A stretch of DNA of 64,000 nt from Candidatus Multivoradales bacterium (GCA_965248925.1 CBDFLE010000006.1:320001-384000), one strand, 5' to 3'. Numbered from the stretch's first letter, positions 10,747 through 63,800 are shown. A program made the numbers and translations. Notes: a model not told the origin generated them from the sequence alone.

Positions 10747-10887
10747 TCCACCGAGAATAGCCGACTTGAGCTGAGAAGGGGACGCTCGAAGTTGGCGCCG
10801 GAGAATCACGGCCGCTGGCAGGAGGAGACGGGTTGCTGCGCCTTCAATTTCGTTCTAGGCTGTCTAGCCAGAAAGGAGCACGCCACC

Positions 10888-42800: not shown

Positions 42801-45800
42801 CCGTCCATCAGCACATGGTGGTTGCTCAGCACCATCAGGTGCCGGTCGGCGGCCCAGCGGATCAGCGCCAGGCGCAGCAGCGGCGGTTGTTGCAAGTCGA
42901 ATCCCCGAGCGCGATCCGCCGCCAGCCACTCCTGCAAGCGGCGACGCTGTTCCGGCGCCGACAGTGCGGACTCATCCAGCTCCCGCCAAGGCAGCTCTAG
43001 CCCTCCACAGACCACTTGCAAGGGAGAAGACTCCTCCCCCGCCACCAGGGCACAGCGCAGATTGTCGTGACGCTGCAACAAACACTGCCAAGCCGCCCGC
43101 AGATGCGCGGCGTTGAGCTCACCTTCGAGGGTCAGCACCAGCTGCACGAAATAGGCTCGATTTTCTGGTTCGTAGAGGCTCTGGAAGAGCAGGCCCTGCT
43201 GCAACGGGCTGAGCGGAAAAAGATCGGTCAGGGTTGGGTACTGCCGTTCCAGCAGCTCGAGTTCCGCCCTGCCGACCGTCGCCAGCGGGAAATCAGCCGG
43301 GGTGAAACCACCGCTACCAGGCTCGCGGCAACAGTCAATCAGTTCGCCCAGAGCGCGGCGGAATCCATCTCTCAATGACTCGATCGAAGCCTGATCGAAG
43401 TGCGGCGCGAAAGAAAAGTTGATTTCCAATCGCTCAGCAAAGACGCCGCCATTGATTTCGATCAGATGAGAGCGCTGGCGACGCGGATCTTCCTCCAACC
43501 CACGGTCCTCGTCAGCAAAATCCCAGTCCTCGCTCGACGAGTGAAACTGCCCTAGATAGTTGAACGAAATCAGCGGTTCAGGAAGGGCAGCCAGAACCCT
43601 TGCGGTGCGCGGATTGAGGTAGCGCAGCAAGCCGTAAGCGAATCCCCTGTCGGGCAGCTGGCGCAGCAGGTCTTTAACCCTCTTCAAAGCCGCGCCCGGA
43701 GTACTCGGCAACGCCGGGATGCGGAGCGGAAAAGCCGATGTAAACCAACCGATGGTGGCCGAGATGTCAGGACTGTCCCCGGTCTCCGCCGCCTGAATCT
43801 GCTCCCGACCGTGCCCTTCCAGGGTCAGCAACAGATCTCCACCTGCTGCGTCCTCAGGCTGCCGCCAACGGTAGATCGCGCGCCCCAAAGCGCTCAGCAA
43901 GGCATCGTTGATCTCGCTGTGAAAAGCCGCCGGCACCTCGGCCAGCAGGCTGCGGGTTTGCTGCCGACTGAGCTCAAAGCTAGTGCGTCCAGCCGCCGCC
44001 ACCGTGCCGATTTCGGCGTCGCGCCAGTCCATCGCCATCGCCAAGCAGCCCGCTGGCACCAGGGTTGTCCGCCAGAACTCCAGCTGCTCTTCCACCGCCG
44101 CACAGCTGGCCAGCTGCGAGAGATGGTGCGACCACTGCTGAAAACTCGCCGTCCTGACGACCCACGGCGGCGGTTGTCCAGCCGCCAACGCCGCGACTCG
44201 CGCCGGCAACTCATGCAACAACAAGCGCCAAGAAACGCCGTCCACCACCAGGTGATGGAGGATCAACAACAGCCGGGCCCGACGATCCGGCCCGAGATAG
44301 AACAAAGCCGCTCTGAGCAACGGTGCCTGCGCCAGGTCGAATCCCTGCTGCAGCTCGCCGCCGAGCCTCTCGATCTGCCGCTGCCACTCACCCTCGCGCC
44401 GGTCCGCGAGATCGTGGACGGTCACCAGCTCGACCTCTGGATCGATCTCGGCATAGACCTGATGCCACATCCCACCGAGGCCGCTACAGGTCAGACGCAG
44501 GGCGTCGTGATGCTCGACAAGCTGCTCGAGAGCAGTGCGTAAATGCGCTGCCTCTACCGCCGCCGGCAGTCGCAGCAGAACCGATTGATTGAAGTGATGA
44601 TGGGGACCCGGCTGTGAGAAGAACCAATGCTGGATCGGCACCAATGGCACCGCGCCGCGGCAGCGTTGCGGCGCTCCCCCGGCCTGCTGCTCGGCATTCT
44701 CCACTGGCACTTGGCCGACAGCGCCACTGTCCACCAGCAGGCGAATCGTCTGCTGGTCGAAGAGGTCACGGGGGGCCAACACCAAGCCCTTCTTGAGCGC
44801 CCGCGACACCACCTGGATAGCGACAATGCTGTCGCCACCAGCCTCGAAAAAATTCTCCTCCACCCCCACCGGCTGGTCCGCGTCGCGACCCAGAACTGCC
44901 GTCCAAATGCGGCTCAGCTCAGTTTCCGCCGCCGAACGCGGTGCCACGTAGCCAGCCGCTGGCGGTGCCGCTTCCTGCAATCCTGCCAACACCACCTGAC
45001 GATCGATCTTGCCGTTGGCGGTGACCGGCATGGGAGCGAAGAACCCGAAGGCCGCGGGGATCATGTGCTGCGGCAGAGTCTGGGCCAAGAAGGCGCGCAG
45101 GTCGGCCACCGCGGGAGGCTGATCCCGCACCCGCAAGGCCGCCACCAGCCGCTGGCGCGGGGCGCCCGCATCTAGCAACACCAAGGCTTCGACAATTTCC
45201 TGATGTTGCAGGAGTCGCGCTTCAATCTCTGGCAACTCAATGCGAAAGCCGCGGATTTTAACCTGATGGTCGATACGACCCAGGAAGCGCAGCCGGCCGG
45301 CCGCTGACCAACGCACCAGATCGCCGCTGCGGTAAAGGCGAGCACCGGCCTCGGTGGTCCAGGGATCGGGTACGAAACTCGCCGCGGTCAGCGCCGGCCG
45401 ACGCAGATAGCCGCGCGCCAGACTGTCGCCGCCAATCAACAACTCGCCCGCAGCCTCCAGCGGCAGCAGCCGCAGATAGCGGTCCACCACCCGCAAGCGA
45501 ATGTTAGCCGCCGGCCGGCCCAACTCCGGCGGCCCCTCAATCGTCGGCTCGATGGGGTCGCTCAAGGTCACGCAGACGGTGTTCTCGGTCGGCCCGTAGC
45601 CATTGCGTAACTGCCGGCCCGCCGCCCAGCACCGCGCCAGCTCGCCGGAGCAGGCCTCGCCGGCGACAACCATTGTTGAAACCGAACTCAGACTGCCCTC
45701 GGGCATCACCGCCAGGGCGGTGGGAATAAGACCGATCTGGGTGACGCGGCGTTGAGCACAGAAGCGCGCCAGATCCGCCCCCGGCAGCAGCTGCTGGCGC

Positions 45801-48800
45801 GGTGGCAACGCCAGGATCGCCGCCGAACACAGGGGCAGGAAAATCTCGAAAATCGAGGCGTCGAAATTGGCCGAGGCATACTGCAAGACCCGCTCGTCGC
45901 GCCGAGAGCCAAGGCGCGAGCGCTGCACCTGCAGAAGATTCCGCAATCCGCCGTGGCTAACCACCACCCCTTTGGGGGTGCCGGTCGAGCCCGAGGTGTA
46001 AATGATGTAGGCCGCTTGCTGCAATGGAGGATCCGCAGCTAGCCAGCCTCCAGACTGTTGCTCGCCGAGTTCTGGCGCAGCGGCATCGAGCAGCAGGCAT
46101 TGCAGGCCATCGACCTCTCCCAGGATGCGTTGCTCAATCGCCGCCGTGGTCAGCACCAGCCCACAGCCGCTATCCCGCAACATGAACTCCAACCGGTCGC
46201 GCGGATACTCCGGATCGAGGGGAAGATAGACCCCACCGCTCTTGAGAATCGCCAGCAGAGCCGTAATCCTGGCCGGAGAACGCTCTAGACAGACCCCTAT
46301 TACCACCTCCCCCCCACTCCCCCGGGCGACCAGCAGCCGCGCCAAGCAATCGGCTTGGCGGTCGAGTTCGCCATAGCTCAAGACTTGATCTTCGAACACC
46401 ACGGCGATGGCGTCGGGCCAGCGGCGAGCCTGCTCGGCAATCATCTGGTGCGCCCGCAGAGGGGTGGGCAGAGCCGCTTCGCTGTCGTTGAAATCGGCCA
46501 GCAGCTGCTGCCTTTCGCCACCGCTCAGCATCGGCAATTGGTCGAGGGGCAGCTGCGGTGAATCGACCAGACCGGCGAGCAAGCAGCGCAGGTGACCACC
46601 GAGACGAGCGACGGTCGCGGCCGAAAAGTGGGCCTCGCTCCAGGCCACTTTGAGCACCAGGGTCTGATCCAAGTAGGCGATCAGCGCCAGCGGATAGGGG
46701 GCAGCTTCAGCGGCCTCGAAGCGGCTCACCGTGAAAGGCAGCGCAGGCGCCGCCTGAGCCAGCGAAGTCGCCGCTGGGTAGTTCTCGAACACCACCAACG
46801 TGTCGAAGATGGCCTGTCCTCCGGGCACCGAGCTGAGGGCTTGAATGGCCTGCAGAGGAGCGTATTGGTAGGGCTCGCGTTCCACCTGCTGCCGCCACAG
46901 GTCAAGAGGCAGCTCAAGGGCGCTCGCGTACTCCTGCAGGCGAACCCGCACCGGCAGGGTGTTGATGAACAGACCGACCATCGATTCGATGCCGCTGAGT
47001 TCCGGCGGGCGCCCTGCCACGGTGCTGCCGAAGAGCACTTCGCGGCGGCCGCAGTAGCGCGACAAGAGCAGCGCCCAGGCGCTCTGGCAGAGCACATTGG
47101 CGGTCAAGTGATGCTGTCGAGCGAAGCTCTGCAAAGCCGCCGTGGCGCTGGCCGACAAGCGCACCAGGTGCTCCCGAACGCCATCTGCGGCACCCTCCGC
47201 CAACCTCGTGGCGGATTCCGCTTTGCTCGCTCTGGAAGGGTCTTCTGGCAACGCCGTAACCTCTTCAAAGTCCCCCAGGTAGGCACTCCAAAAGCTTGCG
47301 TCGCGACTCTGATCGCGGCTCACCAGCCAGGCGATATAGTCACGATATGGGCGCGGTGAAGGCAGCTCCCAGCGCTGGCCAGCCGACAGGGCTTGATAGC
47401 GTCCCCAAACCTCGCGCAACAGCACCGAGATCGACCAACCGTCGAGCAACGCATGGTGGTTGCTGACCACCAACTCGTAACGCGCCTCACCACTGCGGAT
47501 CAGGGCCACTCGCAACAGCGGCGCCCGCGCCGGGTCGAAGCCCGTTTGCCGATCGGCCGCCAACCAGCATTGGATTTCCTGCTCCAACCCGCCGGCCTCG
47601 TGGTCGGTCCAATCCAGCACCGTCCAGGGTAGTTCCAGGACTCCACATTCCACCTGCAACGGCTGCGGGCCATCGTCCAGCAGCATCGCGCAACGCAAAG
47701 CGGCATGGCTGGCGAGGATTTGCCGCCAGACCTCGTGCATCAGCTCCGGGATCACTTTCCCCTGCAAGGTGAGGCGCAGCTGCACCCCGTAAATCGAGCT
47801 GCTGGAGCCCGGCGAATCGCGGCGGTCGTAGTAGGTCTGGAAGAGCAAGCCGGCTTGCAGCGGACTCAGCGGGAAGACATCCGCCAGCGCCGGCAAGCGC
47901 TGCTCGATCTCGTCCAAGCGTTCCTGGCTGAGCTCCACCAGCGGGAAATCCGAGGGGGTGTGGCCACCGCCGCCGGACTGCCGACACTCCTCGATCAGCT
48001 GCTGCAACGCGGTGGTATAAGCCGCCGCCAATGCTTCGATCTCAGCCGCGGAAAAGCAAGGGCTGTAGGTGAAAGTGAACCGCAGCCGGCCTTCGACGAT
48101 CGCTCCATTGAGATCGATCAAGTGCGAGCGCCGACGCCGGGGATCATGCTGCTGACCGCGATGAGCCTGTTGGTCGAGCTCCCAGGAGCCGCCCAAAGAA
48201 GTGAACTGGCCGAGATAATTGAACGACACCAGCGGTTCGGGCAACGCCGCCAGAGTGCCCGCGGTGGTGGGATTGAGGTAGCGCAACAAGCCATAGCCGA
48301 GACCCTTGTGGCGGATCGCCCGCAGCTCCTCCTTGACCCGCTTGAGAGCGGCGCCTGGAGCTTCCGGATCGGTGCTGATGCGGATCGGGAAAGCGGCGGT
48401 GAACCAACCGACGGTGCGCGCGATATCAAGCGCCGTCAGCCCGCTGGCGGTCGCCAAGTCTTCGCGGCCGTGCCCCTCCAAGGTCAGCAGCAAATCACCC
48501 TTGGCGGGCAAACCTCGCTGACTGCACCAGGTGGCGAAAGCCCTGCCCAGGGCGCTCAGCAGGGCGTCGTTGATCTCACTGCGGTAGGCGCTGGCGACTT
48601 CCGTCAACAGAGCCTCGGTCGCTGGTCGGTCGAGCGAGATCTCGACCGAGTCCGCCGCCCCAACCCGACCTAGCTCGGCCCGCGAGTCGCCCCTCAAGAT
48701 GGACAATAAGGCAGCGGGAGCTTGTATCGCCTGCCAGGTAGTTAACTCTTGCTGGATCAGCTCAGTTTCCGCCACCGCGACCAGGTGATTGGCCCAGTTT

Positions 48801-51800
48801 TGGTAGGAGTCTCCTGTCACCACCGGCGAAGGGCTGCGCCGCTGCCGAAGATCGTGGTAGAAGCGTGGTAGTTCCGTCAGCAACAGACGCCAAGAGACTC
48901 CGTCCACCACCAGGTGATGCACCACCAGCAGCAGACGAGCGGGCCGCGCCGAGCCCAGCAGACACAGGGCCGCGCGCAGCAACGGCGGACGGGAAAGATC
49001 CAGACTGCCCTGGGTTTGGGCATCGAAAAGCTCGAACTCCCGCCGCCAGCGCGGATCCTTCGCCGCCGTCAGCCGTGATAAATCACAAACCGTCAACAAC
49101 CGGGTCGCCGGATCCACCGTGCCGTAAGTCTGCCGCCAACCCCCGCCAAGGTTGAAGAAACGCAACCTGAGAGCATCATGAGCCGCGACCCACTGCCACA
49201 GCGCAGCCGCCAAACAGTCCCCATCCAGGGTGGCGGGCACCGCCAGCGAGACCGATTGATTAAAATGATCATAAGGACCCGGCTGAGCAAAGAAAGCACT
49301 TTGAATCGGCGTCAGGGGAACTGCGCCGTAGGGGATTTCGCGCTCTTTTGCGATCACCGGTGCAGCTTGCTCAGCTGCGCCCAAACGCGGTAGATGCGCC
49401 GCCAGCCCGGCGATGGTCTGGTGGCGGAAAATATCCTGACTGGACACTTGCAGGCCGGCCTCGATTGCCCTCGAGGCTGCTTGTAAAACCAGAATGCTGT
49501 CGCCACCGGACTGGAAGAAATTCTCCTCGACGCCCAAGGGGTGCTCCGCATCGCGGCCCAACAGGGACGACCAAATGTGGCATAGAGTGCGCTCCGCGGC
49601 ATTGCGCGGGCCGCGAGATGATACTGCCTTTGAAACCGTTTCGATGATCTGGCACAGCACCGCCCGGCGGTCCACCTTGCCGTTGCTCAAGGTCGGCAGC
49701 GGCTGTTCGACGATGGCCAGAATCGACGGCATCATAAAGTCGGGCAGCGTGGCCCCGAGGAAGCTGAGCAACTCGGCTTCGGTGACGGTCTCCGCCAACG
49801 TTCTGACGGCAGCCACCAGCCGCTGTCCCCCCTCCCTCTCCTGCGCCAGAACGCAAGCCTCCAGTACTTCCGAGTGGCTCAGCAGCCGAGCTTCGATCTC
49901 TCCCACTTCGATGCGAAAACCACGGATCTTCACCTGCTGATCGAGCCGCCCCGAGAGCTTGATGTCCCCGCTCGGCAGAAACCGCGCCAAGTCGCCAGTG
50001 AGATACAAACGCCCGCCAATGTGCGTCCCATGAGGATCGGGCACAAATCGCTCAGCGGTTTGCCTTGGCCGCTGCACATAGCCGCGAGCCAAACCCGCTC
50101 CCGCCAGCACCAACTCCCCCACCGCCTCCTGCGGCACCGGTTGCAACCTGCGATCGAGCAGCAGGGCTCGGGTCTGGTCGATCGGCCGGCCGATGGTCTG
50201 CGGACCGCCCACCCGGCGCAAAGTGGCTGTCGAGTAGGTCGTGTCCTCACTGGGTCCATAGAGGTCGTGAACCTGCTGCACCGAGGGCAAGGCGTGCAGG
50301 GAGTCGACGAGCTCTGGGGTCAGCGGCTCCCCCGCCAAGTTGAACACCAGAACGTTGGCGGGCACGCTGCTCGCGCGCACCATTTCCGCCGCCGCGGACG
50401 GCACCGTGTTGATCAAGGTCACCCGCTGGCGCCCGGCGAGGTCGGCCACCGCCAGTGCATCGTCCGCCAGCAGCAGGGTGCCACCGACCGACAAGGGTAG
50501 AAAGATCTCGAAAACCGAAAGATCGAAGCACACCGAGGTCGCCGCCAACACCCCTGCCAGGCTGGCTGGCGAGTAAACGGTGACAGCCCAGTCCAGCAAG
50601 GCGGCGACCGAACTCTGGCGAACACCCACCGCCTTGGGCCGGCCGGTAGAGCCCGAGGTGTAGATAAGAAACGCCAACTGCTGGGGATCGATGGGAGCAG
50701 CAGCAGGATCAGCCGCAGGATCAGTCTTCAGATCCTCCCAGAAAACCATTTCCCGCCCACGCTGGGCAGCCGCCGCGGCCAGGCCATCGACCGCCAGGCC
50801 GCGGCGGGTGACCAGCGCCGAGACCGCGGCATCGGCCAGCATGAAAGACAGCCGCTCTTGGGGATAGACCGGATCCAACGGCACATAGGCGGCACCGGAC
50901 TTGAGAATGCCCAGCAGGCTGGCGATCAACTCCGGACGACGGTCGAGCAAGACCGCCACCCGCTGCTCCTGGCCGATACCACGCCCCAGCAAGCGGCTGG
51001 CCAGCAGATCGGCCTGGCTGCTGAGTTCGGCATAGGTCAACTCCTGTTCGCCCCAAACCAAGGCAACGGCTCCAGGCGTGCGCCGCACCTGCGCCGCGAA
51101 GCGATCGTAGATGCCGACCAAGGGGCGCCGAGAGTCTTCACCGCGGGCGGTATCGTTCCAGCCGTGCAAGACCTGGAACCTCTCCGCCGCGGGCAGCGAA
51201 CTGAGTTCGCTCAGCTGCTGGTCAGGATGGGCGACGAAACCATCCAGCAAGATCCCCCAATGTCTCACCAGGCGTTGGATCAGCGGCGGATCGAAGAGGT
51301 CGCGGTTGTATTCCAGCCCGGCCGCGTAACCACTATCAGCCTCCATCAGGTAGAGGGTGAGGTCGAATTTGGCAACCTCGTAGCGCTGCGCCAGCTCAAC
51401 CACCGTCAGACCCTTCAAGCGCAGGGGCGGCGCCGGAGTGTTCTGCAGCGAAAGCATCACTTGGAAGAGGGGGGAGCGGCTGGGGTCGCGCCCTGGGTTG
51501 AGTGCTTCCACCAGGCGCTCGAAGGGTAGATCCTGATGGGCGAAAGCAGCCAGGGCAGTGTGGCGCAGAGCGATGATGCGTTGCCGCGCGGTGTCGCCAG
51601 CGGACAAGACATTGCGCAACACCAGAGTGTTGACGAACAGCCCGATCAGCGGCTCGAGTTCGGTGAAGCCGCGATTGGCCACCGGAATACCCACGGCAAC
51701 TTCGGCAGCACCACTGAAGCGCCCCAGCAACTCTGCAAAAACCGCTTCCAGCACGAGAAAAGGCGTGCCTCCAGCTGCTTTCGCCAATTGCCGGACCCCA

Positions 51801-54800
51801 GCGCTGCGCGCCGCGCTCAGGCTAAATCTCTCCAGCCCACCGCGAAACGTCTGCACCGCGGGCCGGGGTCGCGAAAACGGCAAATCGAGAGCTTCGGGGG
51901 CCCCGGCAAGCTGCCGAGTCCAATACTCCAGCTGCCGCGCCAAGGCCGCGCCCGCCAGCTGCCGCCGCTGCCACAGGGCATAGTCCGCATAGTGCAGCGG
52001 CAGCGGCTGAAGGGTGGCCGGCGAAGCCTCCACCGGGGCGTCAGCCGGATAGTCGCGAGCACAGAAAAGCCGATAGAAGGCGCCTAATTCCTGATTCAAG
52101 ACCCCCAGCGACCAGCCGTCCGCCACCCCATGGTGCAGATTCAGCGCCAGCACGTGGGCGTCGTCTCGCAGGCGCACCAAGCAGGCGCGAAAGAGGGGTC
52201 CCCGTTGCAAGTCAAATGGCGTGGCGGTATCGCCAGCCACCAGCGCCACCGCCTGCGCCTCGGCGATGGCCGCAGATAGCCATGAGAGATCGACCACCGG
52301 CAAGCGACAATCAGCCGCCCCGATCACCTGGCGAACCTCACCCACCAGTTGTTGACCGGTCTCGGCCGCGGCCTCGGCAGTGCCCATTTCGCTCGGCTTC
52401 GCCAGCGCAAAATAAGTCCGCAGGCTCTCGTGACGAGCCACCAGGGCGCCCAGGGCCTGGGCCAACGCGGAGACCTTCAGATTCCCATCGAGACGCCAGG
52501 CGGTAGGCAGGTTGTAGGTGGCGGAGGGACCTTCCAGACGATCCAAGACCCACAGCCTCTGCTGGGCAAAGGACAGCGGTAGCAGAGTCGGTCGCGAAGC
52601 TGCTGTCGGTGGCGAAAGGGCCACCCCCCGGCCTTGCAAAATCGGCATTCGGGCGGCCAGCGCCCGCACCGTCGGGTGGCCGAAAACCTCCCGCAGAGGC
52701 AGCTCGACAGCGAAGGTTTGGCGCACCAGAGCGGCCAGACGAGTCGCCGTCAGACTGTGCCCTCCGAGCTCAAAGAAGTGGCTCTCGCGGCCGATGTTGG
52801 CCACCTCCAGGTCCAGGACTTCAGCCCAGATACCGCAGAGCAGCTCCTCTTGCGGAGTCCGCGGCGCGATCCTCTCCACCGCTCCAGAACTCTTCACCGC
52901 CACCGCCCGCTGTTGCAATAGCCGGCGATGCAACTTGCCGCTGGTGGTGAGCGGCAAGCGATTGAGCAAGGCGATCGCCGCAGGCACCATGAAAGGTACC
53001 AGCCGATTCGCCAGCACCTCCCGCAAGGCACTCACCAAGGGCTGATCATCGACCTCACAGAGCTCTCCGCCTGAGCCCTCGCTGGCGGCGGGCACCACGA
53101 ACGCGATCAACCGGCGGTCACCGGAAGGCAGCTCCGCCACCACCACCGCCGCTTCCCGCACCGTCGCCTGGGCCTCGAGCAAGACCTCGATCTCCGCCGG
53201 CTCGATGCGGTAGCCCCGCACCTTGACTTGGCGGTCGCAGCGGCCCAGGAACGCGATCTGCCGGGCGCCGTCATAGCGGGCCAAGTCGCCGGTCGAGTAG
53301 AGCCTCTCACCGCCCCCTTCGGCGAAGGGATCGGGCACCAAGCGGGCGGCGGTCAGCCGGGGCCGCCGCCAATAGCAGCGGGCCAGGTTGGCGCCGGCGA
53401 TGTAAAGCTTCCCCGGCACGCCGATCGGCAGCAGGCCCAAACCCCGACCCAGCAGGAAAATCCGAGTCCTGGTGATGGGCTCGCCGATCGGCGGCCTGAG
53501 CGGCCACTGCGCGACCGCCGTCGGCAGAGCGAAAGAAGTGACTACATGAGCTTCGGTCGGCCCATATTGGTTGTGGAAGGAACACCCGGGAAGGGTGGCA
53601 AAAAAGGCTCGTAGCTGGCTGGTGGTCTGCGGCTGCTCACCCGCCGTGTAGACCTCGCGCAGAGCACCAGGTGCCAGAGCCCCACCTGCCGGCCCGCCAT
53701 CCTCGGCCGCCACCGCCAGCGCTTGCAAGCCGACGAAGGGCTGGTGCATGCGCTGAATGCGCTGCCGCTGCACAAGAACCAACAGAGCGGGGGCGTCGCG
53801 CCGCAGATCCTCCTCCACCAAAACAACTTCGCCGCCGCTGCACCAGGTCTCGAACAGCTCTTGCACCGACACGTCGAAGCTCAAGGGCGCCAGCTGAAGG
53901 GTGCGCAGCCGCTGCTCAAAAGTCCCCAAGCCGGTCTGCCAGCGGATCAAATTGGCGATCGCCCCCCGGCTCATAGCCACCCCCTTGGGGGCACCGGTCG
54001 AACCCGAGGTATAGAGCAGGAAGAGGAGGTTCTCAGCGCTGGCGGTCTCAGCGAGAGGTTCAACCTGTTCAGCCAGGACCCCGGTGGTGGCCGCGAGCGC
54101 CGCGATGGAGATCCCCCGATCACCCCAGGAGAGGGCCAGCTCTGGCCCCGGCTGGGCGTCAGCTGCACCAGCCCCCGGCTCGTCGCACAGCACCAACGCT
54201 GGCGCCGCGTCGTCCACCATGCAGCGCAAACGCTCCAGCGGGTAGGCCGGATCGAGAGGCAACCAGGCGCCGCCGGCTTTGAGCACCGCCAATACCGCTT
54301 CCGCCATGGCCAGCGACCGGCGTAGGCAAATGCCGACCACCACATCAGGGCCAACGCCCCTAGCCCTCAAACCGCGGGCCAGGCGGTCACTGCGCCGATC
54401 GAGCGCCCGATAGGTCAAAACTTGGTCGCCAAAACGCAGCGCCGGGGCCTCGGAAAAGGCCTCCACGGCAGTGGCAAAGGCAGCTTGCAGACTGATGGTA
54501 GGACCGTCGATGGCTGTGTTGTTGAAGTCACTCAACAGCTGCCGGCGTTCCGTCTCAGGCAGCCAGGGAAGGTCGAGAACTCCCTGCTCCAAGCCGGCGG
54601 AGAAACCTTGCAACAGAACCACGTACTGCGCTGCCAAGCGGCGGATCCGCTGGCGCTCAAAAAGAGTCGGGTCGTACTTGAAGACCAGAGTCAGCCGCTC
54701 CTGGAGTTCCAGCACCTCCAGGCTGAGCTCGATCTCACCCACTTGATGAACACCGCCTATCGGTTCGAGGGCGAGGCTCTGATTCTGCCGCCCGGGACCG

Positions 54801-57800
54801 TACTCCAGATCTTGCCGAGAACGCAGGTTCTGCCAGATGAAGCTGGCTTGAAAGAGCGGCGAACGATCGGCCGCGGAGGGAATTTGCAAGGCTTGAACCA
54901 GGTTCGGCAAGGGCAGATCGGCGTGCTTTAGCAGACCGAAAACCGCCTGCTGAACCGCCGCCAAGAAGCTCTCCAAGGGTGGATTGCCAGCCATCTCGAG
55001 ACGCAGCGGCAGCAGGTTGACGAAATAGCCCACCACCCCGTCACAGAAACCCTCCGGCCGTCCCGTGACCGCCGTGCCTATCACCACCTCCCCTTGCCGC
55101 GCGTGGTGCGCCAGCAACAGGCCAAAGGCACCCAGGCCAAGACCGAAGGGACTCGTCCGACAACGCCGGGAAAGCTGGCGCAAGGAGGCCACCAGATCCT
55201 CCTGCAACTCCACCTCGAAATAGTCGCCGGTGAAACTCCGCACCGCTGGCCGCGGAAAGTCGAGCGCCAGGTCCAGCCCTCGCGGCGCTCCCACCAGCTG
55301 CTGGCGCCAGTAGCCGAGCAAGGACTCACCGACCGGCGAGGCGAGCATCTCCCGCTGCCAGACCTGAAAAGCGGCGAAACTCCGTCCCAGCGCCGGCAGC
55401 TCGGGTCGCCGAGCGGCCGTCAAGGCGCTATAGACCGCGAGCAACTCGTCGATCAACACTTCGTACGACGCCCCGTCGAAGACCAGGTGATGAATATTTA
55501 GCAGCAGAATCGGCCGCCGCGGACCACGGCTGAAGAAGAAAACCCGCAGCAGCGGTCCTTCTTCGAGATCAAAGGGACGGCGGGTGGTGGCGAGCAAATG
55601 CTCCACCACGCCTTCCTCCTCGAGCTGCGAGAGGTCCACTTGCTGGAACTGCACGGACCGCTCCCTCAGCACTATTTGGCGGGGCTCGCCTTCGATCTCC
55701 CGAAAGACCGTGCGCAACGCCGGATGGCGATCCTGAAGCAGTTGGAAGCTGCGTCGCAACAGCGCCAGATCCACCTGCCGATCGAGGCGGAAGGCGAAGG
55801 GAATGTTGTAAGCATAGGTCTGCGCGGCTAGGCGGCAAACGAACCAGATGCCGTGCTGCGCCGTGGTCAGCGGCAACGAAGACTTGGCTAGCGCGGCCCT
55901 GGCCAAGCTTCGGTCGGCGGCGGAGGAGACACTAACCGCGGCCTGTCGGCGAGGGCGGTAGAGGCTCTGCGCCTCGCCGCCAAAGCCCTTGCCGCGCTGA
56001 TCGAGACACAGATCCGGAGGCTCAGGCCCGGCCGCCAAAGCCTCGACAATGGCTTCGGCCATGGCATCAGCCTGCGCTCGCGAGGTGCCCAGAGGAACCG
56101 CCAAGCGCACCAGGTCATTGAGCGCGCTACTTTGCTGCAAGCCGGCCAGATGGCCGCCGCCCCGAATGCCGGTTTCGAGGTAGAGCCAAGCCAGGAAGGA
56201 AGGCACCGGCAGCTCCAGCTGGCGAAAGCCCTCCACAGCTCGCGGCCGCAGCAGGACACAATGAGTACCGGCTGGCGTGACCACCGCCACTCCGGCCGCG
56301 CTCAGACCCCGCACCATCGTCCGCACCGCCGCCAGGCGCTGCCGACCACGCTGCAAGATAGCTGGCCGATCGGCCAACGCCGCGGCCAATAACCGGCGTT
56401 GCGAGCGGTCGAGATCAAAACCCCGCTGCTCGGCCTCTTGCTCCATCCGCCGCTGCAGAGCGGCCTCTCGACAACAGACCACGCCGCCAAAGTTGATCGC
56501 GAAGTCCTTGGCCAGACTGGCGGTCAGGAAGTCGGCGGTGGCGCAGATCCGCCGCAAGGTAACGACGGCAGCAGAGTCGTTACCGGCAGAGTCGTCGCCA
56601 GCGCCGGCATCGTCCGCCGCCGACCTGCTCCGCTGCTCAATCAGCAGCACATTCTCCAGCATCCGAGTAGCATCGATCAGCAGCGGCACCCCGGCTCGGC
56701 CCAGGGCCTGCTTGGCCGCCAGCAGATCGTCTAAATCAACCGGATAGCCACCGGCACCGTTGCTGCTCAGTTCCAGACAAGCCAGCACCGGCCGGTGCCG
56801 GGCCAGATACTCATCTAGAGCCTGCGGATCGAAGCCACCGCGAAAGAGCACCGTCGACGAGAGCTTGAATATTTCCGCATGGGGCACCTCTTGCCCGATC
56901 AAGCCATGCTCGATCTGCCACTTCAGCTGGGTCGGAAAGAGCAGGTTCTGCACCACCTCGCCGCCCCCCTCCTCCGCCCACGAACGCCAAAAGACCTCTT
57001 CAGCCGCTCGCCCAGAAACCGTTAACAAAGTGTGCTCGAAGGGGAAAAACTGCCGCAACAGAGCCTCTAGATCCGGATCGGCGGCGGGGCGGGTGAGCAA
57101 CTCACCCATCCGTGAACGTATGTCCGGCGTATCTAGTTGAGCCCAGGAGTCCGTCTTCAGATCGGCCGCCACGGCCAGACTGTCGAGCAGCAGGGGATTG
57201 AATCCGTGGCGCCGCAATTGGGCCAGCCTCTGAGTCCGCGATGCTGCCGCGGTGAGGGCCTCGGCCACCGGCGTTTCTTCCTCGGCCGTGGGCTCTGGGC
57301 GGTTCTCTTCCACCACCGCCGCAACTTCGGGGTTGGCCAACATCATCAGCGAATCGACGATGCGGTCGGCGGCGCTGTCGAGAGGCCGGCAGAGGTAGAG
57401 CTGGGTGTTCTCGGGATGGAACTTGTTCTTGAACTGCAAGTTGCCGGCACCATCGAAGACACCCCGCTGGCGCAGCTCGCCGAGCACCTCTTCACCTTGT
57501 GGATCCGTCTCTTCGGCGCCCTCCAGCCGGGCGCCGAAGGTGCCCCCCAGGCTGTAGGCCTGCCAACCCTCTGCCGCCAAGGTTCGCAGAATGTGGGTGA
57601 TTCCGAACTCCAATCCCCCCAGAGGCATCTCGCGGCCATAGAACTCAAGGTCCATCAAGTACCCCCGCCCATTCGCCAGGGCGGTGATGACAATCACGTT
57701 AGCGAGGCGGTCGCCGAGCCAGGTGAGGAAGATCCGGTGACCCACCGCCAGGCGGCCAGCCGCCAGCTCGGCCCGCACTGAGCGGATGTAGGGATTGACC

Positions 57801-60800
57801 ATGCTCTTGCTGTCGCACCAGGCATCCACCAACTCGACGATGGCGCCATCGGTGGCGGCTTCGGCGCCCGAGCGGTACTCCTCGGTCCGCGCGCTGGCAT
57901 CACGGCCGAAGCGCCGCACCAGATAGCGCAGCCGGCCCATGACCCGGCCCTTCAAGCTGAAGTCGGCGAGGCTGGGCAAGCGCTGCATGACACCAAAGGG
58001 CAGGGCTCCCAAGGCCCGGCCACCAGCCTGGCGCAGCGGCACCTCCAACACCAGGTGGGGAGTCAAGCCGCGGCCCGCGCAGTAGGCGTAGAGTTCGTCC
58101 GCCAGCTCTTGTAGGGCAGCCGCCGCGCCGACGAAACAGAAAGCGAAGAGCAGCTGATCGCTGTGGTTGAAATAGAACAGCCCGCTACTCCCGGAGCCGA
58201 GGAAGACCCACGGCGCGATGTCTCGCCGAGCCAGGGCCGCGGTCTCCCAGGAGTGCTCTTGCAGCAAGGCCGCCACCGCCGCTTGGGCCGCGGGGTCTGC
58301 ACTCAGTTCCTTCTCGCGCAGCACGGTCCATCGCGGTGGGCCGGCGATCATCGCCGCGGGCGGCTCTGGAGCGGGCGGCGCCAAGGTTGCGGTGGGCGCC
58401 GCCACCGCGGACGTAGCCGCCGCCGGGAACTTCTCAGACCACACCTGAGGGTAATCCTGCACCAACCTGCTGCTCAGCTGACACAGGGTGTCGGCCTCGA
58501 AGAGCAGGGTTTGGGGCAAGGGTCCGGTGTCCTTCTCCAGGGTCTTGAGCAAGCGCAGATTGAGGAAGGAATCCACCCCGTAGTCGGCAAAGGGCTGCTC
58601 GAGATCGAGCTCTTCGGCGCTGGCGCGGAGAGCCTTGGCGAAGGTCTTAACCAGAAATGCCTCGACTTGGGCTTCGAGATCTGGTGCCGCAAGTGAGGGG
58701 GCTGACGGAACTGCCTTGGCAGCCGCGGGGTGCCGCGCCGCGTCACCGTTGAGCGCCGCCTCGATCTTCGCCCCATCCCCAGGTGCCACCACCAGGTTGC
58801 CGGCCGCCGAACCCAGAGCTACCGCCAGCGCGGCCAATCCAGCGCTGGTGGCGAGCGGAGTAACGCCGGTGGTTGCTTCAAAATAGGCAATCTGCCGCGG
58901 CGTCAGGGACATTCCCCCGGCAGACCACAGGGGCCAGTTAATCGCCACGCTGATCCCCTGGCGTTCACCGCGCCGCCGCAAGGTCTCGCGCTGATGAGCA
59001 AAGCCGTCCATGAAGCCGTTGCCGAAGGCGTAGCCCGTCTGACCCGGATTGCCCAGCACCGACGACAACGACGAGAACATGCAGAAGCAAGCCAGGGGCT
59101 GCTCACCAGTGACCTCGTCCAACACCGTGGTACCCCGCACCTTAGGCTGGGCCACCGCCACTAGTTGGGCCGCCGACTGATCGGCGAAGAGACCGTCGTC
59201 GAGCACCCCAGCAGCATGGAAGACTCCATCGAGCTGCCCCAAGAGGGTTTTCATCTCGGCCATCACCGCCACCATCTGCTCTCTATTCGAGACCTCAGCT
59301 TGGCGGTAAAAGACCCGGTTCCGCGAGCCGGCCAAGGCCGCCAGATGAGCGTCGATCGCCGGCGTGCGGGGGGAGCGTCCTAGTAGCAGCAGGTTGGCGT
59401 CGAGGGTGGTGACCAGGTGGCGCGCCAAGATCAGACCCAGGCCGCCGGCACCGCCGGTGATCAGGTAATTGCCGCGCCGGGGCAGCTCGAGCGTCGCCGC
59501 CGGTGGTGGCGCCCAGGGAATTAGTCGCCGCAGCAGGCACTGCTCCCCCTCCAGGCGCAAGTGCCGGCAGCCCGGCTGAGCAGCTAAGACCACGGCCGGC
59601 AAATCCGCCGCCGCCAACGGCTGCGGGGTCTCGACCAGGGTGAAGGACAGCCGCCGATCTTCAGCCGCCAAAGTCCTCAGAAAAGCCGCCCAGGCCATCA
59701 ACCAGGGCGAGTTTTCCAGTTCGCGATTGGGCGCCAGATAGAGCACTGGTTTGGGATCTGGCTCTGCTTGCAAAGCTCGCAGTCGGGGCAACCATTGCGC
59801 AAGGTCGAGGGCGCCGGCCGCCAAAGGCAAGACTTCGACCGCTACGTTGGTTTCAAGCGCCGTCCTGCGAACCGCAGGGGCCGCGGTCAGCGGAGTCCAA
59901 ACAGGCTGGAAAAAATGCACCGTGGCCGGACTCTGCCCAGCCTCCTCGGCGATCGCCGGCGGTGATTTGAGCAGCGGAAGACCACCGGAGCCGGCAGTGG
60001 ACGGCCCCGACGAGGGAGTCTCGAGCATCCGCACCGCCAGCTGGTCAAAGCGCGCCAGCGGCTGGCCGTCGTCGTCGGTGATCACCACGTCGAAGCACGT
60101 CGTAGTGCCGCCAGCGCCGCCATTGCCGCCATCGACCCGGCTGACGACGGCGTAACAAGCTCGTGGCAGAGCCACTAAGGGCTGCCAGCGCTGCAACGAG
60201 AAAGGCACCGGAATGCCACCGGTATCGCCCATCAAGCCGACCACCGCCTGCAACGCCCCATCGAGCAAGCTGGGGTGAAAGGCAAAGTTCTCTCGCTCGG
60301 CCGACAGCGGTAGCTCGAGCCGCGCCAGCGCCTCTCGACCGTTGCCCTGCCAGACTTGGATCGGACGACAGGCCGGACCATAGTGCAAACCCCGCACCGC
60401 CAGGCGCCGATACCAGGTGTCCCCATCCAGGGTCTCGTGGCAGCGTTGCCGCAGCTCGCCGAGAGCCAGAGGTGCCGAGCTGACCACTGTCCCGCGGTGG
60501 ACCTGCCCTTGCGCCAAAACCGTCGGCTCGCCCACTCCATTGCTGGACAGAGACCAGGCGGCCCCTGGGCGTTGGGCGGTGGAGTCCGCGGCTGCCGAGA
60601 AGGCCAGCAACAGCTTCTCCGGCCCACCGCTGAAGACCAGCGGCCGCTGCCAGGTGATGGCGCTCAACTCGATCGCAGCCGTGCTCGCCACCACGCCCGC
60701 CACGCTTTTCGCGGTGCCAGCGACCTCCACGGCTGCGTGGCTGGACAGCGCCGCGGCGCGTGCCATCTCCAAACAGGCCACTCCGGGCAGCAGGGCGCGG

Positions 60801-63800
60801 CCGGCGATCAGGTGGTCGGCGACATAGGACTCATCGCCGCGCAGCACTTTGACGAAGTTGGCCCGCTGCAACGACAGCCCATCGATCAGCGGATGGGCGG
60901 CAAGGCACGTCTCTCGCCGGGTGGTGAGCTCAGGGGTGGAGTCCTTGCCGACTGAGCGTTGATCGGGCACCCAGAAACGGCGGCGGTCGAAGGGGTAAGT
61001 GGCCAATGGCAAGCGCCCCGGTGGCCGACCCTCGTAGAGTTCCCGCCAAGCGATCTCGGCACCAGCTACCCAGGCGGTCGCCAGCGTGGCGAGATCTTTG
61101 TCGACCAAGGCGCGAGAAAGCTCTGCCGCTGACCCCAACCCGACCTGCGGCTCTTTGAGCTTGGCGGCGGTGCCGACCCAGGTCGCTGCCGGGGTCTGGC
61201 CAGCGGCGAAGGCGCGGAGTTTCAGCACCAACTCGCCAAGCCCCTCAGCGGCGATGGCCAGGCGCTGACCGTAAGCCTCGCGCCCTACTTGCAAGGTGAA
61301 GGCAACCTGGCGTGGATCCTGCGACGGGCCGGAGGAGGTGGTGGCCAGCTCTAGCAGGGTGGTGACTTGGCTCGGCCACGGCGGCTCGCCGGCCGCGGCT
61401 GGCGGCAGACGCTGGCGGAGAAGCTCCAGCTCCGCGACACCGAATCCCAGGTCGGCCAACGGCTCCCCAGGATCTACATCGAGCGGATCCAGGCCAAGAA
61501 TCTCAGCCGCCAAGCGAACCACCGGTACCAGAGCCAGCTCTTCGTCATCTGCCGAGGTCGGAGTCTGCAACCGATCGGCCAGCGCGGTGGCATAGCGCCG
61601 CAGCACCGACTCGGTTTTTGCCGCCAGCACGTAGAGCCGACGCTGAGATGGCAGGTCGCTGATCTCGTTCTCGCGGGCCGGCGCTCGATACTCTTCCACC
61701 ACCACATGGCCGTTGACCCCGCCCATGCCGAAGGAACTCACCCCGGCACGCCGCGGTAGCGGCTCACCGGCGTCATCCAGCAAGGCCGTCCAGGGCTGGG
61801 TGTGGCGCACGATCTGCAGCGGCGTGCCCTGCAATTTGATGTAGGGATTAACCTTCTCGATGTTGATCGAAGCTGGCAGCGTGCGATGCTGCATCGCTAA
61901 AACGACCTTGAGCAGGCCGGCGATGCCAGAAGCCCGCTCGAGATGGCCGATGTTGCTCTTCACCGAACCAATCCAACAATGGGCCTCGGTGGGCAGCTCC
62001 CGGCCCTGCTCGGCATAGAGTCTTTGGAAGGCTTGGCGCAGGCCGCTGAGTTCAATCGGGTCGCCCAACGCAGTGCCGGTGCCGTGGGCTTCGATGTAGG
62101 AGATGGTCGCCGGATCGAGGCCGCTTTGCCGCCACGCCTTGACCAGCAGATCGGCTTGGGCATTGGGGTTGGGAGCGGTCATCGAGGCCGCCCGGCCACC
62201 GTGGTTGACGGCGCTGCCGCGGATCAAGCCATAGATGAAGTCACCGTCCGCTTCGGCGGCGCTCAGGGGCTTTAGTAGCACCGCACCGGAACCTTCACCG
62301 CGAGTGTAGCCGTCGGCGCGATGGTCGAAGGTCTTGCAGCGACCGTCAGGAGCCAGCATCGCCGACTTGGAAATGGCGATGTGATCCCGCGGGCTACAGT
62401 TGAGATTGATACCGCCAGCGATCGCCAGCGGGCAATGGCCGAGTCTGATCGCCTCGACCGCGTTGTGCACCGCCACCAAGGCACTGGAGCAGGCGGTGTC
62501 GACCGGCTCACTGGGACCGTGAATGTCGAGCAGGTAAGAGATCCGGTTGGTCAGGATGGAGTGGAACGAGCCGGTGAGGGTGTAAGCCTCCAGGTCGACC
62601 TCGTAGTCCCGGTAGATTTCCTTGTAGTCGTAATTCCCCACCCCGACAAAGATGCCGGTGTCGCTGCCGGCCAGGTCCGAAGGCTTGTAGCCGGCGTCTT
62701 CGAGAGTCTGCCAGACGGTTTCCAGGAAGACCCGCTGCTGCGGATCCATCAACTCCGCTTCGCGCGGCGAGATGCCGAAGAAAGCGGCGTCGAAAGTATC
62801 GATCTCGGGGACAAAGCCGCCGTACTTGGCGTCGGTGCGGTTGCCCTCTTCGAGCGGATCGCCAAACACCGCCCGCCAGTCCCAGCGATCCGGCGGCACC
62901 TCGGTAATCAGATCCTTCTCCTCCACCAAGTGGCGCCAGAAAATCTCCAGGTCGGCACTCTGCGGCATGATGCCGGCGATGCCGATGATGGCGATGGGTT
63001 GGTCAGAGAGACTCCCGGCGCTCGCTGACTGAGGAGGTGGCTCGGGCGGCGGAGCCGCCAGTTTGGCTACCACCGAGGGCGCCCAAGGCAACGCCGGAGA
63101 GGCCACGGCCGCGGCCGGCGCGGCGCTGGCGATGGGTTGGGCGACGGCTGGCGCGGCGGCGCCAAAATAGGCGCCGATCTGCGGCTGATGTTGGGCGAAA
63201 ATATGACCGGACAAGCCTGCCAAGGTGGGAAACTCGAAGAAGATGACCGGCGTGAGGTCGAGATCAAATTGGCGATTGAGCTCGTCGGTGAACTCAGTGA
63301 AGGTCAGCGAGTCGAAGCCGAAGTCGCTCATGTCGGCATCGTCATCACGCTCCGTACTGCCCACCGAGAGAGTTTCAGCGAGCTTCTTCCACATCTCTTC
63401 GCGCAATTGGCCGAGTAGGGTGTCCGCGTCGAGATCCGCCGCTGGCCCGGCGGGCCGCGGTAACGCCGGCGGGGTGCTTGGCGCTTCGCGAGTAGCCAGC
63501 ACCGGCGGCGGCGCCAGCGCCTGCTCTGGCTTGTCGACCACTACCTGCGGTCGCCGAACCGGGCCGAAGACCTGGTGGATCTTCGCCGTCTCACCTTCGA
63601 CCAGCGCAAAATGTGCCCGCCCCGGCGCCAGACTGCCGTCCAACACCCCTTCTAGCACCCGCATCCCAGCTTCGCTGCTCAGCGGTTTCATTCCCCAGGT
63701 CCGCAGCAGGTGCTTCTCGACCCGCGGATCTACGGTCATCCCCCCTTGCCGCCAAAGCGGCCAGCCGATGGCCACGGTGCGGCCCCGCCGACGACCCGCC

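What the first reader, a model, noticed from the sequence alone, without database searches (positions are those of the whole stretch)
55950..58330. Leinamycin-type DUF-SH-like sulfur-incorporating didomain at a PKS-to-NRPS junction
Seen: between the last ACP and the first C domain lie a DUF2156/MprF-like domain and a complete tryptophanase-fold PLP domain (DLKTDSW, GRAAE, DATRMLEN, SLAKD). The preceding module has an intact DH and a B-type KR, predicting an E-enoyl-ACP Michael acceptor. Known: in leinamycin (LnmJ) and guangnanmycin (GnmT) PKSs a DUF-SH didomain installs sulfur at the beta-carbon; DUF is proposed to add (thio)cysteine and the PLP-dependent SH lyase cleaves the C-S bond, near the end of actinobacterial assembly lines. 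Inference: here the same chemistry would occur mid-line, and the beta-thio/persulfide acyl chain would be extended by nine amino acids, an architecture I do not know to be described. Alternative: tRNA-dependent aminoacyl transfer plus a different PLP reaction.
Basis: partly seen in the sequence, partly recalled or inferred. Interest (0 to 1): 0.92.

Follow-up and report, generated by a model that had tools for sequence, protein, structure and literature searches.

The report
Sulfur-adding didomain at PKS–NRPS junction
A giant antibiotic-type assembly-line enzyme of a soil-type acidobacterium carries, twice, the two-part module that in leinamycin-family pathways puts sulfur onto a growing chain; one copy sits just before the peptide-making half, a rare but not unique arrangement that marks a good lead for a new sulfur-rich lipopeptide.

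Summary
Window 55946-58255 (minus strand) encodes a DUF2156-fold domain and a PLP beta-lyase domain between an ACP and a condensation domain. The lyase's best solved relative, by sequence and by fold, is the guangnanmycin thiocysteine lyase (SH) domain, ahead of tyrosine phenol-lyase. It keeps all 60 family-conserved residues.

The gene runs off the window. It is one 19,437-aa trans-AT PKS-NRPS with a second DUF-SH upstream, nine NRPS modules and a TE. RpoB places the host in Acidobacteriota.

The novelty claim holds only in part:
- Mid-line DUF-SH outside actinobacteria is already published (PMC3870968, PMC8479088).
- It is the majority form in databases: 169 of 210 didomains and 75 of 80 loci are followed by a KS.
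- SH followed by C is rare: 4 of 210 and 3 of 80.
- The twin-didomain line recurs in 4 of 40 related genomes.
- I found no paper describing the junction.

Most likely function: conjugate addition of (thio)cysteine to the enoyl-ACP, then C-S cleavage. That would give an acyl-nonapeptide bearing two beta-SH/SSH groups. This is inferred, not shown. New variant of a known kind; interest moderate.

The parts
18809..64000 (-). Window part of one 19,437-aa trans-AT PKS-NRPS gene. The stop is at 18809-18811. The gene continues upstream to G000:C6:397122.
   Evidence: ORF list. Extension in the genome and translation. Domain map.
61733..63001 (-). KS of PKS module 4, with the DTACSS, EAHGTG and KSNIGH motifs.
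   Evidence: Pfam ketoacyl-synt 3.4e-87. Motifs. A RhiE-like linker follows and there is no AT domain, so the line is trans-AT.
60014..60871 (-). DH of module 4 with HLIAGRALLP, YGP and DGALQ.
   Evidence: Pfam PKS_DH_N and PS-DH. Motifs.
58922..59473 (-). KR of module 4 with the LDD motif (B-type by the recalled rule) and the catalytic Tyr.
   Evidence: Pfam KR 1.1e-69. Sequence.
58493..58705 (-). ACP of module 4 (GVDSF), the carrier that would present the chain to DUF and SH.
   Evidence: Pfam PP-binding and ACP_SdgA_C. phmmer map. Motif.
57368..58255 (-). DUF domain (Pfam DUF2156 / LPG_synthase_C, tandem-GNAT fold).
   Evidence: Pfam 47.7 bits. PDB sequence hits LpiA/MprF 1.2e-05, sharing D..E, EG and FKxKFxP. 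AlphaFold model pLDDT 90.1. Foldseek top hits MprF, A-PGS and L-PGS at E 1e-17 to 1e-15, TM 0.62-0.70. 29 of 29 family-conserved DUF columns kept.
57251..57367 (-). Linker between DUF and SH.
   Evidence: The pLDDT<50 stretch (model residues 348-363) and its flanks cover this span. pTM 0.58 shows no fixed orientation between the two domains.
55946..57250 (-). SH domain (PLP-dependent C-S lyase of the thiocysteine-lyase family).
   Evidence: PDB 9cen 8.8e-48. Foldseek 9cen E 1.9e-33, TM 0.85-0.87. 31 of 31 family-conserved SH columns kept.
56507..56509 (-). Codon of the predicted PLP Schiff-base lysine (SLAKD; residue 6872 of the whole protein).
   Evidence: Invariant in 86 of 86 didomains. Aligned to the second Lys of SGKKD in tyrosine phenol-lyase.
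54533..55879 (-). First condensation domain (HHLVFDG), directly after SH: the PKS-to-NRPS hand-over.
   Evidence: Pfam Condensation 1.6e-90. Motif.
18824..54433 (-). Nine NRPS modules (nine A and nine PCP domains), five E-like domains and a terminal TE.
   Evidence: Pfam. phmmer map. HHxxxDG and E-type HHLVVDGVSW motifs.
16563..18767 (-). DUF5916 + CBM9 protein directly downstream; possibly part of the cluster.
   Evidence: Pfam. The same family follows the PKS in related locus L009.

Best explanation
Window 55946-58255 encodes a functional, non-leinamycin-type (mid-line) DUF-SH didomain. It belongs to a 19,437-aa trans-AT PKS-NRPS of an acidobacterium.

Proposed course of events:
1. Module 4 (KS-DH-KR-ACP) makes an alpha,beta-enoyl-ACP.
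2. The tandem-GNAT DUF domain binds the pantetheine-tethered enoyl thioester. It catalyses conjugate addition of the sulfur of free L-thiocysteine (or L-cysteine) to the beta-carbon.
3. The PLP-dependent SH domain forms an external aldimine with the cysteinyl part and cleaves its C-S bond by beta-elimination.
4. This leaves -SSH (or -SH) on the chain and releases aminoacrylate, which breaks down to pyruvate and ammonia.
5. The sulfurated acyl-ACP is then taken by the first C domain, not by a KS or TE, and is extended by nine amino acids. A TE releases the product.

An equivalent didomain two modules earlier, outside the window, does the same. The acyl part would therefore carry sulfur at C3 and C7.

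Shown here: the homology, the fold, the conserved residues, the domain order, and conservation of the whole line in relatives.
Inferred from the literature on LnmJ, GnmT and WsmR: the SH chemistry.
Proposed but never demonstrated for any member: the role of DUF.
For: - SH is closest to GnmT-SH (9cen) by sequence (8.8e-48 against 1.5e-27 for tyrosine phenol-lyase) and by fold (TM 0.85-0.87).
- The window copy carries the consensus residue in 60 of 60 columns conserved in at least 93% of 86 didomains. These include the PLP Lys, the Asp and Arg of DATR, the Asn of NGAGG and the Arg of RLAVP.
- The general-acid Tyr71 of tyrosine phenol-lyase is not conserved (alignment). PMC3870968 reports the same for PKS-embedded lyases.
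- LnmJ-, GnmT- and WsmR-SH cleave thiocysteine adducts 50- to 106-fold better than cysteine adducts (PMC8479088, passages).
- Module context: the DH is intact and the KR carries LDD.
- Among didomains with an upstream KS in the same protein, 17 of 21 mid-line ones have a DH in the module. None of 23 TE-tailed (LNM-like) ones do.
- KS domains that follow SH cluster. The KS after this protein's first didomain lies in a starred set of 43 rows, 42 of them post-SH KSs. The KS of module 4 lies elsewhere. This fits a chemically distinct intermediate.
- The line is conserved. The same architecture occurs in G035, and SH-C in G004 and G017. Copy-1 and copy-2 didomains form separate 100* clades. That points to purifying selection rather than a relic.
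- The C domain has HHLVFDG.
Against: - No experiment exists on this or any mid-line DUF-SH, and no product of a non-LNM DUF-SH cluster turned up in my searches.
- Identity to the characterised type is only about 32-40%.
- The DUF's role is only 'proposed' in the literature (PMC8479088, PMC7618002).
- The DUF's nearest folds are aminoacyl-tRNA-dependent transferases: MprF/aaPGS, FemX, Sba18/Sbb17.
- 4 of 21 mid-line modules show a KR but no detectable DH, so an enoyl acceptor is not universal.
- The KS clustering could reflect co-inheritance of modules rather than substrate selection.
- No persulfide methyltransferase or other sulfur-tailoring gene was seen beside the gene.
- Deep nodes of the didomain tree are weak, with support of 39.
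Confidence: 0.7

Rival explanations
1. Same didomain and same overall logic, but the donor is L-cysteine. The group installed is then a plain beta-thiol, not a hydropersulfide. The thiol may be used further, for example in a disulfide or thioether.
For: LnmJ-SH was first described as a cysteine lyase, and all three tested SH domains do cleave cysteine adducts (PMC8479088, passages). No persulfide-capping methyltransferase lies beside the gene. A free persulfide is described as intrinsically unstable (PMC8479088).
Against: The three SH domains tested prefer the thiocysteine adduct 50- to 106-fold (PMC8479088). The genome has several Cys/Met-metabolism PLP enzymes of the family that includes cystathionine gamma-lyase, the proposed thiocysteine source. 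That family is found in 14 of 14 control genomes, so this is weak evidence.
Confidence: 0.25
2. The DUF is an aminoacyl-tRNA-dependent transferase, like its structural relatives. It would move a cysteinyl or other aminoacyl group from tRNA onto the chain, and the PLP domain would then carry out a different reaction on that residue.
For: - Foldseek's best matches to the DUF model are MprF, A-PGS and L-PGS, then FemX and the aminoacyl-tRNA-dependent peptide synthases Sba18/Sbb17.
- The FKxKFxP, D..E and EG motifs are shared with LpiA/MprF.
- A conserved basic helix (consensus MRRLRYxVxKF) resembles the feature said to bind the tRNA acceptor stem in this superfamily (PMC6103681, passage). The correspondence between the two helices was not tested.
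Against: - An aminoacyl transfer would esterify or amidate the alpha-carboxylate.
- The SH domain keeps the Arg (RLAVP) that matches an Arg of the GnmT SH domain in the alignment and is invariant in 86 of 86 didomains. That it corresponds to the carboxylate-binding Arg of tyrosine phenol-lyase is read from motif likeness and PMC3870968, not from an alignment column.
- The tested SH domains act on adducts linked through sulfur (PMC8479088).
- A basic helix serves equally well for docking an acidic ACP.
- The residue aligned with the Arg of the DLMR motif of LpiA is Phe in the DUF.
Confidence: 0.08
3. The junction didomain is an inactive or skipped relic, and the chain passes unmodified from the ACP to the C domain.
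For: None specific. Silent domains do occur in large synthases (general knowledge).
Against: 60 of 60 conserved residues are kept. The models are confident. Orthologous copies are kept at 55-63% identity in four related genomes and form their own clade.
Confidence: 0.04

Closest known systems
DUF-SH didomains of LnmJ (leinamycin), GnmT (guangnanmycin) and WsmR (weishanmycin)
   Same: - Same two domains in the same order after an ACP in a trans-AT PKS.
- The best solved relative of the SH half is GnmT-SH.
- Both DUFs are Pfam DUF2156 (PMC3870968 Table 2).
- Same conserved residues.
   Different: - LNM-type modules are terminal: KS-ACP-ACP-DUF-SH-TE with a beta-branch acceptor (PMC7618002).
- They have no DH or KR: 23 of 23 here.
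- They form their own clade (100*).
- This copy follows KS-DH-KR with one ACP, feeds a C domain, lies outside that clade and sits in an acidobacterium.
Non-LNM, mid-line DUF-SH modules known only from genome mining: Kordia algicida A9ECY5 and Lysobacter sp. ATCC 53042 F8TUA6 in PMC3870968, and the three extra families of PMC8479088
   Same: Single ACP, no TE, placed within the line. Both copies of this protein fall among these in the trees. This form is widespread in Pseudomonadota, Bacteroidota and Acidobacteriota.
   Different: Nearly all of them hand over to a KS: 169 of 210 didomains and 75 of 80 loci. Here the second copy hands over to an NRPS C domain, and one polypeptide holds two didomains. 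No product is known for either kind.
C-terminal synthase domain of MprF / aminoacyl-phosphatidylglycerol synthases (DUF2156)
   Same: Tandem-GNAT fold, TM 0.62-0.70. Shared FKxKFxP, D..E and EG motifs.
   Different: 15-18% identity. There is no membrane flippase domain and no lipid context, because the domain is embedded in a PKS. Use of aminoacyl-tRNA is untested and, for this chemistry, unlikely.
Tyrosine phenol-lyase and tryptophanase
   Same: Fold and PLP-binding residues.
   Different: 22-24% identity. The Tyr71 position is not Tyr. The domain is embedded in the synthase. The genome has a separate 494-aa stand-alone homologue with 32% identity to SH.

Membership tests
SH (thiocysteine/cysteine lyase) domains of PKSs | Closer to a characterised SH domain than to free beta-eliminating lyases | tested here: met
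   9cen (GnmT SH) E 8.8e-48 against tyrosine phenol-lyase 1.5e-27 and tryptophanase 8e-16. Foldseek TM 0.85-0.87 at 32% identity against about 0.8 at 22-24%.
SH (thiocysteine/cysteine lyase) domains of PKSs | PLP lysine and the PLP- and carboxylate-binding residues present; the general-acid Tyr of tyrosine phenol-lyase absent | tested here: met
   K6872, D6817, R6820, N6788 and R7006 are each invariant in 86 of 86 didomains and present here. Thr, not Tyr, aligns with Tyr71. PMC3870968 reports this loss for embedded lyases.
SH (thiocysteine/cysteine lyase) domains of PKSs | C-S bond cleavage of an S-linked (thio)cysteine adduct | not testable with these tools
   Enzyme assay needed. Shown only for LnmJ, GnmT and WsmR (PMC8479088).
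DUF-SH didomain | A DUF2156-type domain immediately before SH, after an ACP, in an AT-less PKS | tested here: met
   Order ACP-DUF-SH. No AT domain in the protein and a trans-AT gene next door.
Leinamycin-type (LNM) biosynthetic line | Terminal module KS-ACP-ACP-DUF-SH-TE with a beta-branching acceptor; eight-module NRPS/PKS | tested here: not met
   Here the order is KS-DH-KR-ACP-DUF-SH-C. The copy lies outside the TE-tailed clade (100*). No HMGS cassette was looked for beyond the flanking genes.
DUF2156 / aaPGS synthase-domain superfamily | Pfam PF09924 above the gathering score, and a tandem-GNAT fold | tested here: met
   47.7 bits against 27.5. Model pLDDT 90.1. Top Foldseek hits MprF, A-PGS and L-PGS.
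DUF2156 / aaPGS synthase-domain superfamily | Aminoacyl-tRNA as donor and a lipid as acceptor | not testable with these tools
   No flippase or membrane domain is attached. tRNA dependence needs an assay.
trans-AT PKS-NRPS hybrid | KS domains without cis AT, a discrete AT gene, and C-A-PCP modules plus a TE in the same line | tested here: met
   RhiE-like KS linkers and no Acyl_transf_1 in the megasynthase. Divergent 795-aa AT gene at L001:13369-15756. Nine A domains and a TE.

The most novel reading that the evidence does not exclude
The two didomains place hydropersulfide groups four carbons apart (C3 and C7) on a short unsaturated acyl chain. These close on each other into a cyclic di- to tetrasulfide. 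The result would be a redox-active polysulfide 'warhead' on a D-amino-acid-rich nonapeptide: a new class of sulfur lipopeptide, from Acidobacteriota, and the first product assigned to any non-leinamycin DUF-SH line. A bolder side reading is that the MprF-like DUF draws its sulfur donor from Cys-tRNA.
Probability: 0.2. Interest if true: 0.75.

Novelty: new variant of a known kind. Interest (0 to 1): 0.5.

Why it matters
DUF-SH is the only known assembly-line device that writes sulfur, as -SSH, directly onto a polyketide carbon. All chemistry known for it comes from three actinobacterial leinamycin-type pathways.

The public data show that mid-line versions far outnumber those. Yet I found no paper that assigns a product to one, and the DUF's reaction has never been demonstrated.

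This locus offers a compact test case:
- It is one gene plus a trans-AT.
- It is conserved in several related genomes.
- Sulfur incorporation would happen twice.
- The sulfurated chain must be accepted by an NRPS condensation domain.

If it works as proposed, DUF-SH is portable across PKS-to-NRPS boundaries, which matters for engineering thiolated peptides. It would also point to a sulfur-rich lipopeptide from a phylum with very few characterised natural products.

Tried and rejected
- **Single-sequence scan.** A scan of genome contigs with the didomain alone found 247 pattern matches and no relative. It was repeated with alignment A1, which worked.
- **PDB entry 9CEN.** A literature search for '9CEN' returned only cytogenetics papers. 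The entry's identity came from the Foldseek title instead.
- **aaPGS catalytic residues.** I tried to map them onto the DUF. The search found one review, and its passages give no residue numbers. I make no residue-level claim beyond shared motifs.
- **Recent internal duplication of the didomain: rejected.** The two copies are 40% identical and sit in different clades.
- **Recruitment of the host's own tryptophanase-like gene: rejected.** The stand-alone 494-aa homologue is only 32% identical, and SH is nearer to GnmT-SH.
- **A-domain specificity.** I read partial codes by eye from an alignment, using recalled anchor motifs and recalled codes. A9 is roughly Pro-like, A4 Leu-like, and A6 and A8 Asp-like. 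Position 278 could not be placed, so these are hints only.
- **Giant ORF and tandem repeat.** I did not lay reads, so the integrity of the 19,437-aa ORF and of the 7.9-kb tandem repeat is not checked against raw data.
- **Closed sources.** Supplements are closed, so Supplementary Figs 4-5 of PMC8479088, which draw the architectures of the 109 clusters, may already show an SH-C junction. My statement that I found none rests on searches and on passages, not whole texts.
- **Overlap of collections.** The named loci and the unnamed relatives come from overlapping collections. Two rows were identical to rows already present and were dropped before the tree. SH-C cases in the two sets are therefore not independent.
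- **Biased samples.** The 210-didomain count pools the top 150 with the length-restricted top 120 and the cluster members. The trees used 86 of those 210 and 40 chosen rows.

Full report
**What is there**

The finding lies on the minus strand, inside an ORF that fills window 18809-64000 and runs off its upper end. In the genome (window = G000:C6:320001-384000) the frame stays open for 19,437 codons, from an ATG at C6:397122.

I mapped the domains with Pfam on four overlapping pieces and with phmmer using the protein's own domains as queries. The order is:

KS-ACP-KS-DH-KR-ACP-DUF-SH-KS-DH-KR-ACP-KS-DH-KR-ACP-DUF-SH-C-A-PCP-(eight more C-A-PCP modules, five with an extra E-like domain)-TE.

- There is no AT domain in the protein.
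- A divergent 795-aa gene with two AT regions lies directly upstream (L001:13369-15756). This is therefore a trans-AT PKS-NRPS.
The first (residues about 2365-3122) lies outside the window.

**Checking the observation**

In the window, DUF is 57368-58255 and SH is 55946-57250.

| Pfam family | Bits | Cut-off |
|---|---|---|
| LPG_synthase_C / DUF2156 | 47.7 | 27.5 |
| Beta_elim_lyase | 77.6 | 27 |

An ACP lies before the didomain and a Condensation domain (E 1.6e-90) after it.

The preceding module has these features:
- DH motifs HLIAGRALLP, YGP and DGALQ.
- A KR with LDD and the catalytic Tyr.
- An ACP with GVDSF.

The meaning attached to these motifs is recalled textbook knowledge.

**What the two domains are**

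*SH half.* Its best match among all PDB sequences is 9cen (E 8.8e-48). Tyrosine phenol-lyases follow at 1.5e-27 and tryptophanases at 8e-16. An AlphaFold model of the didomain has pLDDT 88.3 and pTM 0.58, with a disordered linker at model residues 348-363. Foldseek again puts 9cen first. That entry is titled 'thiocysteine lyase (SH) domain from guangnanmycin A biosynthetic pathway' (TM 0.85-0.87, 32% identity). Tyrosine phenol-lyases follow at TM about 0.8 and 22-24% identity.

*DUF half.* Modelled alone, it has pLDDT 90.1 and pTM 0.87. Its best structural matches are:
- the DUF2156 synthase domains of MprF, A-PGS and L-PGS (E 1e-17 to 1e-15, TM 0.62-0.70);
- then FemX;
- then the aminoacyl-tRNA-dependent peptide synthases Sba18/Sbb17;
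- then acetyl-CoA-using tandem GNATs.

At sequence level it shares D..E, EG and FKxKFxP with LpiA/MprF.

*Conservation.* In an alignment of 86 didomains, 60 columns are at least 93% conserved. The window copy has the consensus residue in all 60, and the upstream copy in 58. These include the PLP lysine (window 56507-56509), the Asp and Arg of DATR, the Asn of NGAGG and the Arg of RLAVP. The position of Tyr71 in tyrosine phenol-lyase is Thr. PMC3870968 describes the same loss for PKS-embedded lyases (passages read).

**Relatives and context**

*Scale.* A HMMER search of 1.84 billion representatives found 630 proteins at E<=1e-3 and 213 at E<=1e-30.

*What follows the didomain.* I annotated all fetched proteins with the window's own domains and found 210 near-complete didomains:

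| Next element after SH | Count (of 210) |
|---|---|
| KS | 169 |
| About 300-aa tail (TE-like, LNM architecture) | 32 |
| Protein ends or is cut | 5 |
| C domain | 4 (this one, P0002, P0006, P0008) |

The sample is biased towards close and mid-length proteins.

*Taxa.*
- The TE-tailed proteins that carry names are from Streptomyces, Actinoplanes and Micromonosporaceae, plus one Endozoicomonas.
- Named mid-line ones include Massilia, Pseudoduganella, Lysobacter, Chitiniphilus, Tahibacter, Steroidobacter, Paraburkholderia and Thermoanaerobaculia MAGs.

*Species genomes.* A scan of one genome per species found 267 relatives. Of the best 80 loci, 75 continue with a KS, 3 with a C domain (L006-L008, the closest at 52-55% identity) and 2 with neither.

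*Host.* RpoB of this genome is 82-86% identical to its nearest database relatives; those that carry a name are Acidobacteriota and Thermoanaerobaculia MAG proteins. The host is not an actinobacterium.

**Trees**

- FastTree on 86 didomains puts all 30 TE-tailed rows on one side of a 100* branch and all 56 mid-line rows on the other. The window copy pairs with P0002 (100*) and the upstream copy with P0014 (98*).
- Among 40 relatives of this genome, four (G004, G014, G017, G035) have a full didomain at 55-63% identity.
- G035 has the same twin architecture in a 17,277-aa frame. G004 and G017 show KR-ACP-DUF-SH-C. In G014 the PKS stops right after SH.
- IQ-TREE (quick, LG+G4, 40 rows) gives a 100* clade of the four copy-1 didomains, a 100* clade of the five copy-2 didomains plus P0002, and a 100* clade of eight LNM-type rows. 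The deep nodes are weak, with support of 39.

The twin arrangement is therefore older than these genomes and has been kept. Whether the LNM type is sister to, or nested within, the mid-line forms is unresolved.

**Mechanism**

The literature I could read establishes four things:
- LnmJ-, GnmT- and WsmR-SH are PLP-dependent lyases that prefer thiocysteine adducts 50- to 106-fold and leave -SSH on the chain.
- Thiocysteine can come from cystine through cystathionine gamma-lyase.
- The DUF is only hypothesised to make the adduct (PMC8479088, passages; PMC7618002, passages).
- Non-LNM DUF-SH modules have one ACP and no TE (PMC7618002).

Three results here fit conjugate addition to an enoyl-ACP:
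- Both didomains of this protein follow KS-DH-KR-ACP with intact DH motifs.
- Of 21 mid-line didomains with an upstream KS in the same protein, 17 have a DH in the module. None of 23 LNM-like ones do; those use a beta-branch instead.
- KS domains that follow SH cluster tightly. The KS after copy 1 lies in a starred set of 43 rows, 42 of them post-SH. The KS of module 4 lies in a different set.

In trans-AT PKSs, KS clades track the incoming substrate (recalled). Co-inheritance of modules would give the same picture, so this last point is supportive only.

For the window copy, the acceptor of the modified chain is a C domain with an intact HHLVFDG.

I therefore favour a working didomain that installs -SSH or -SH at the beta-carbon before peptide extension (0.7). 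The rivals are a plain thiol from cysteine (a variant), tRNA-dependent transfer by the MprF-like DUF (0.08) and an inactive relic (0.04).

**Novelty**

PMC3870968 (2013, Table 2) already lists:
- LnmJ as ...CP-CP-DUF2156-PLP-hydrolase;
- mid-line CP-DUF2156-PLP-KS in Kordia algicida and Lysobacter sp. ATCC 53042.

PMC8479088 (2021) reports 109 DUF-SH clusters in four groups, three of them non-LNM, with variable architectures.

What I did not find in print (searches; 'DUF-SH' occurs in seven papers of the library):
- an SH-to-C hand-over;
- two didomains in one line;
- any product of a non-LNM line.

The arrangement is rare but not unique in public data. I rate it a new variant of a known kind, and a good genome-mining lead rather than a surprise.

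Noticed in passing
L001:3718-6105 (= G000:C6:387718-390105), outside the window: A second DUF-SH didomain in the same polypeptide. It is 40% identical to the window copy, follows KS-DH-KR-ACP and is followed by a KS. The line would therefore incorporate sulfur twice.
   Followed up: yes
window about 21300-29200 and about 29200-37100: A tandem duplication of 7,911 nt, covering two NRPS modules plus an E-like domain. About 5 kb is 100% identical and the edges are 90-99% identical. It is either a very recent module duplication or an assembly risk.
   Followed up: partly
L001, residues about 190-200 of the megasynthase (first KS, residues 30-428): The first KS has DAAHASS where the others have DTACSS, so His replaces the active-site Cys. 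An ACP follows it. This may be an unusual non-condensing, loading-type KS.
   Followed up: no
window 16563-18767 (-) and L009:3222-5696: A DUF5916 + CBM9 protein follows the megasynthase here. The same family follows the PKS in a related acidobacterial locus, where a trans-AT comes next. It is a possibly conserved cluster member of unknown role.
   Followed up: partly
L009:2-3277 (same architecture in L089): In one relative the PKS reading frame stops right after the SH domain, with no C, KS or TE. It is unclear how the chain is released. Self-release through the new sulfur group is conceivable.
   Followed up: no
window 2583-4976 (-) and 6516-7907 (+): Two transposase genes (Transposase_29; DUF772/DDE_Tnp_1) lie about 11-16 kb beyond the 3' end of the megasynthase gene, beside a beta-lactamase-fold protein (9217-10809) and a TrmB-type regulator (11907-12788).
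   Followed up: no
window about 39620-39640 (-): One of the five E-like domains has HHLVVDV instead of HHxxxDG (Gly to Val in the motif).
   Followed up: no
proteins P0129, P0134, P0135, P0139, P0146: These PKS proteins have a DUF2156-like domain between KS and DH or KR and no SH domain (E about 1e-51 to 1e-59 to the DUF half). This is a different use of the same fold.
   Followed up: no
G000:C6:4753120-4754349 (+): A stand-alone 494-aa beta-eliminating-lyase homologue, 32% identical to the SH half. Similar stand-alone genes account for most of the weak matches in related genomes.
   Followed up: no
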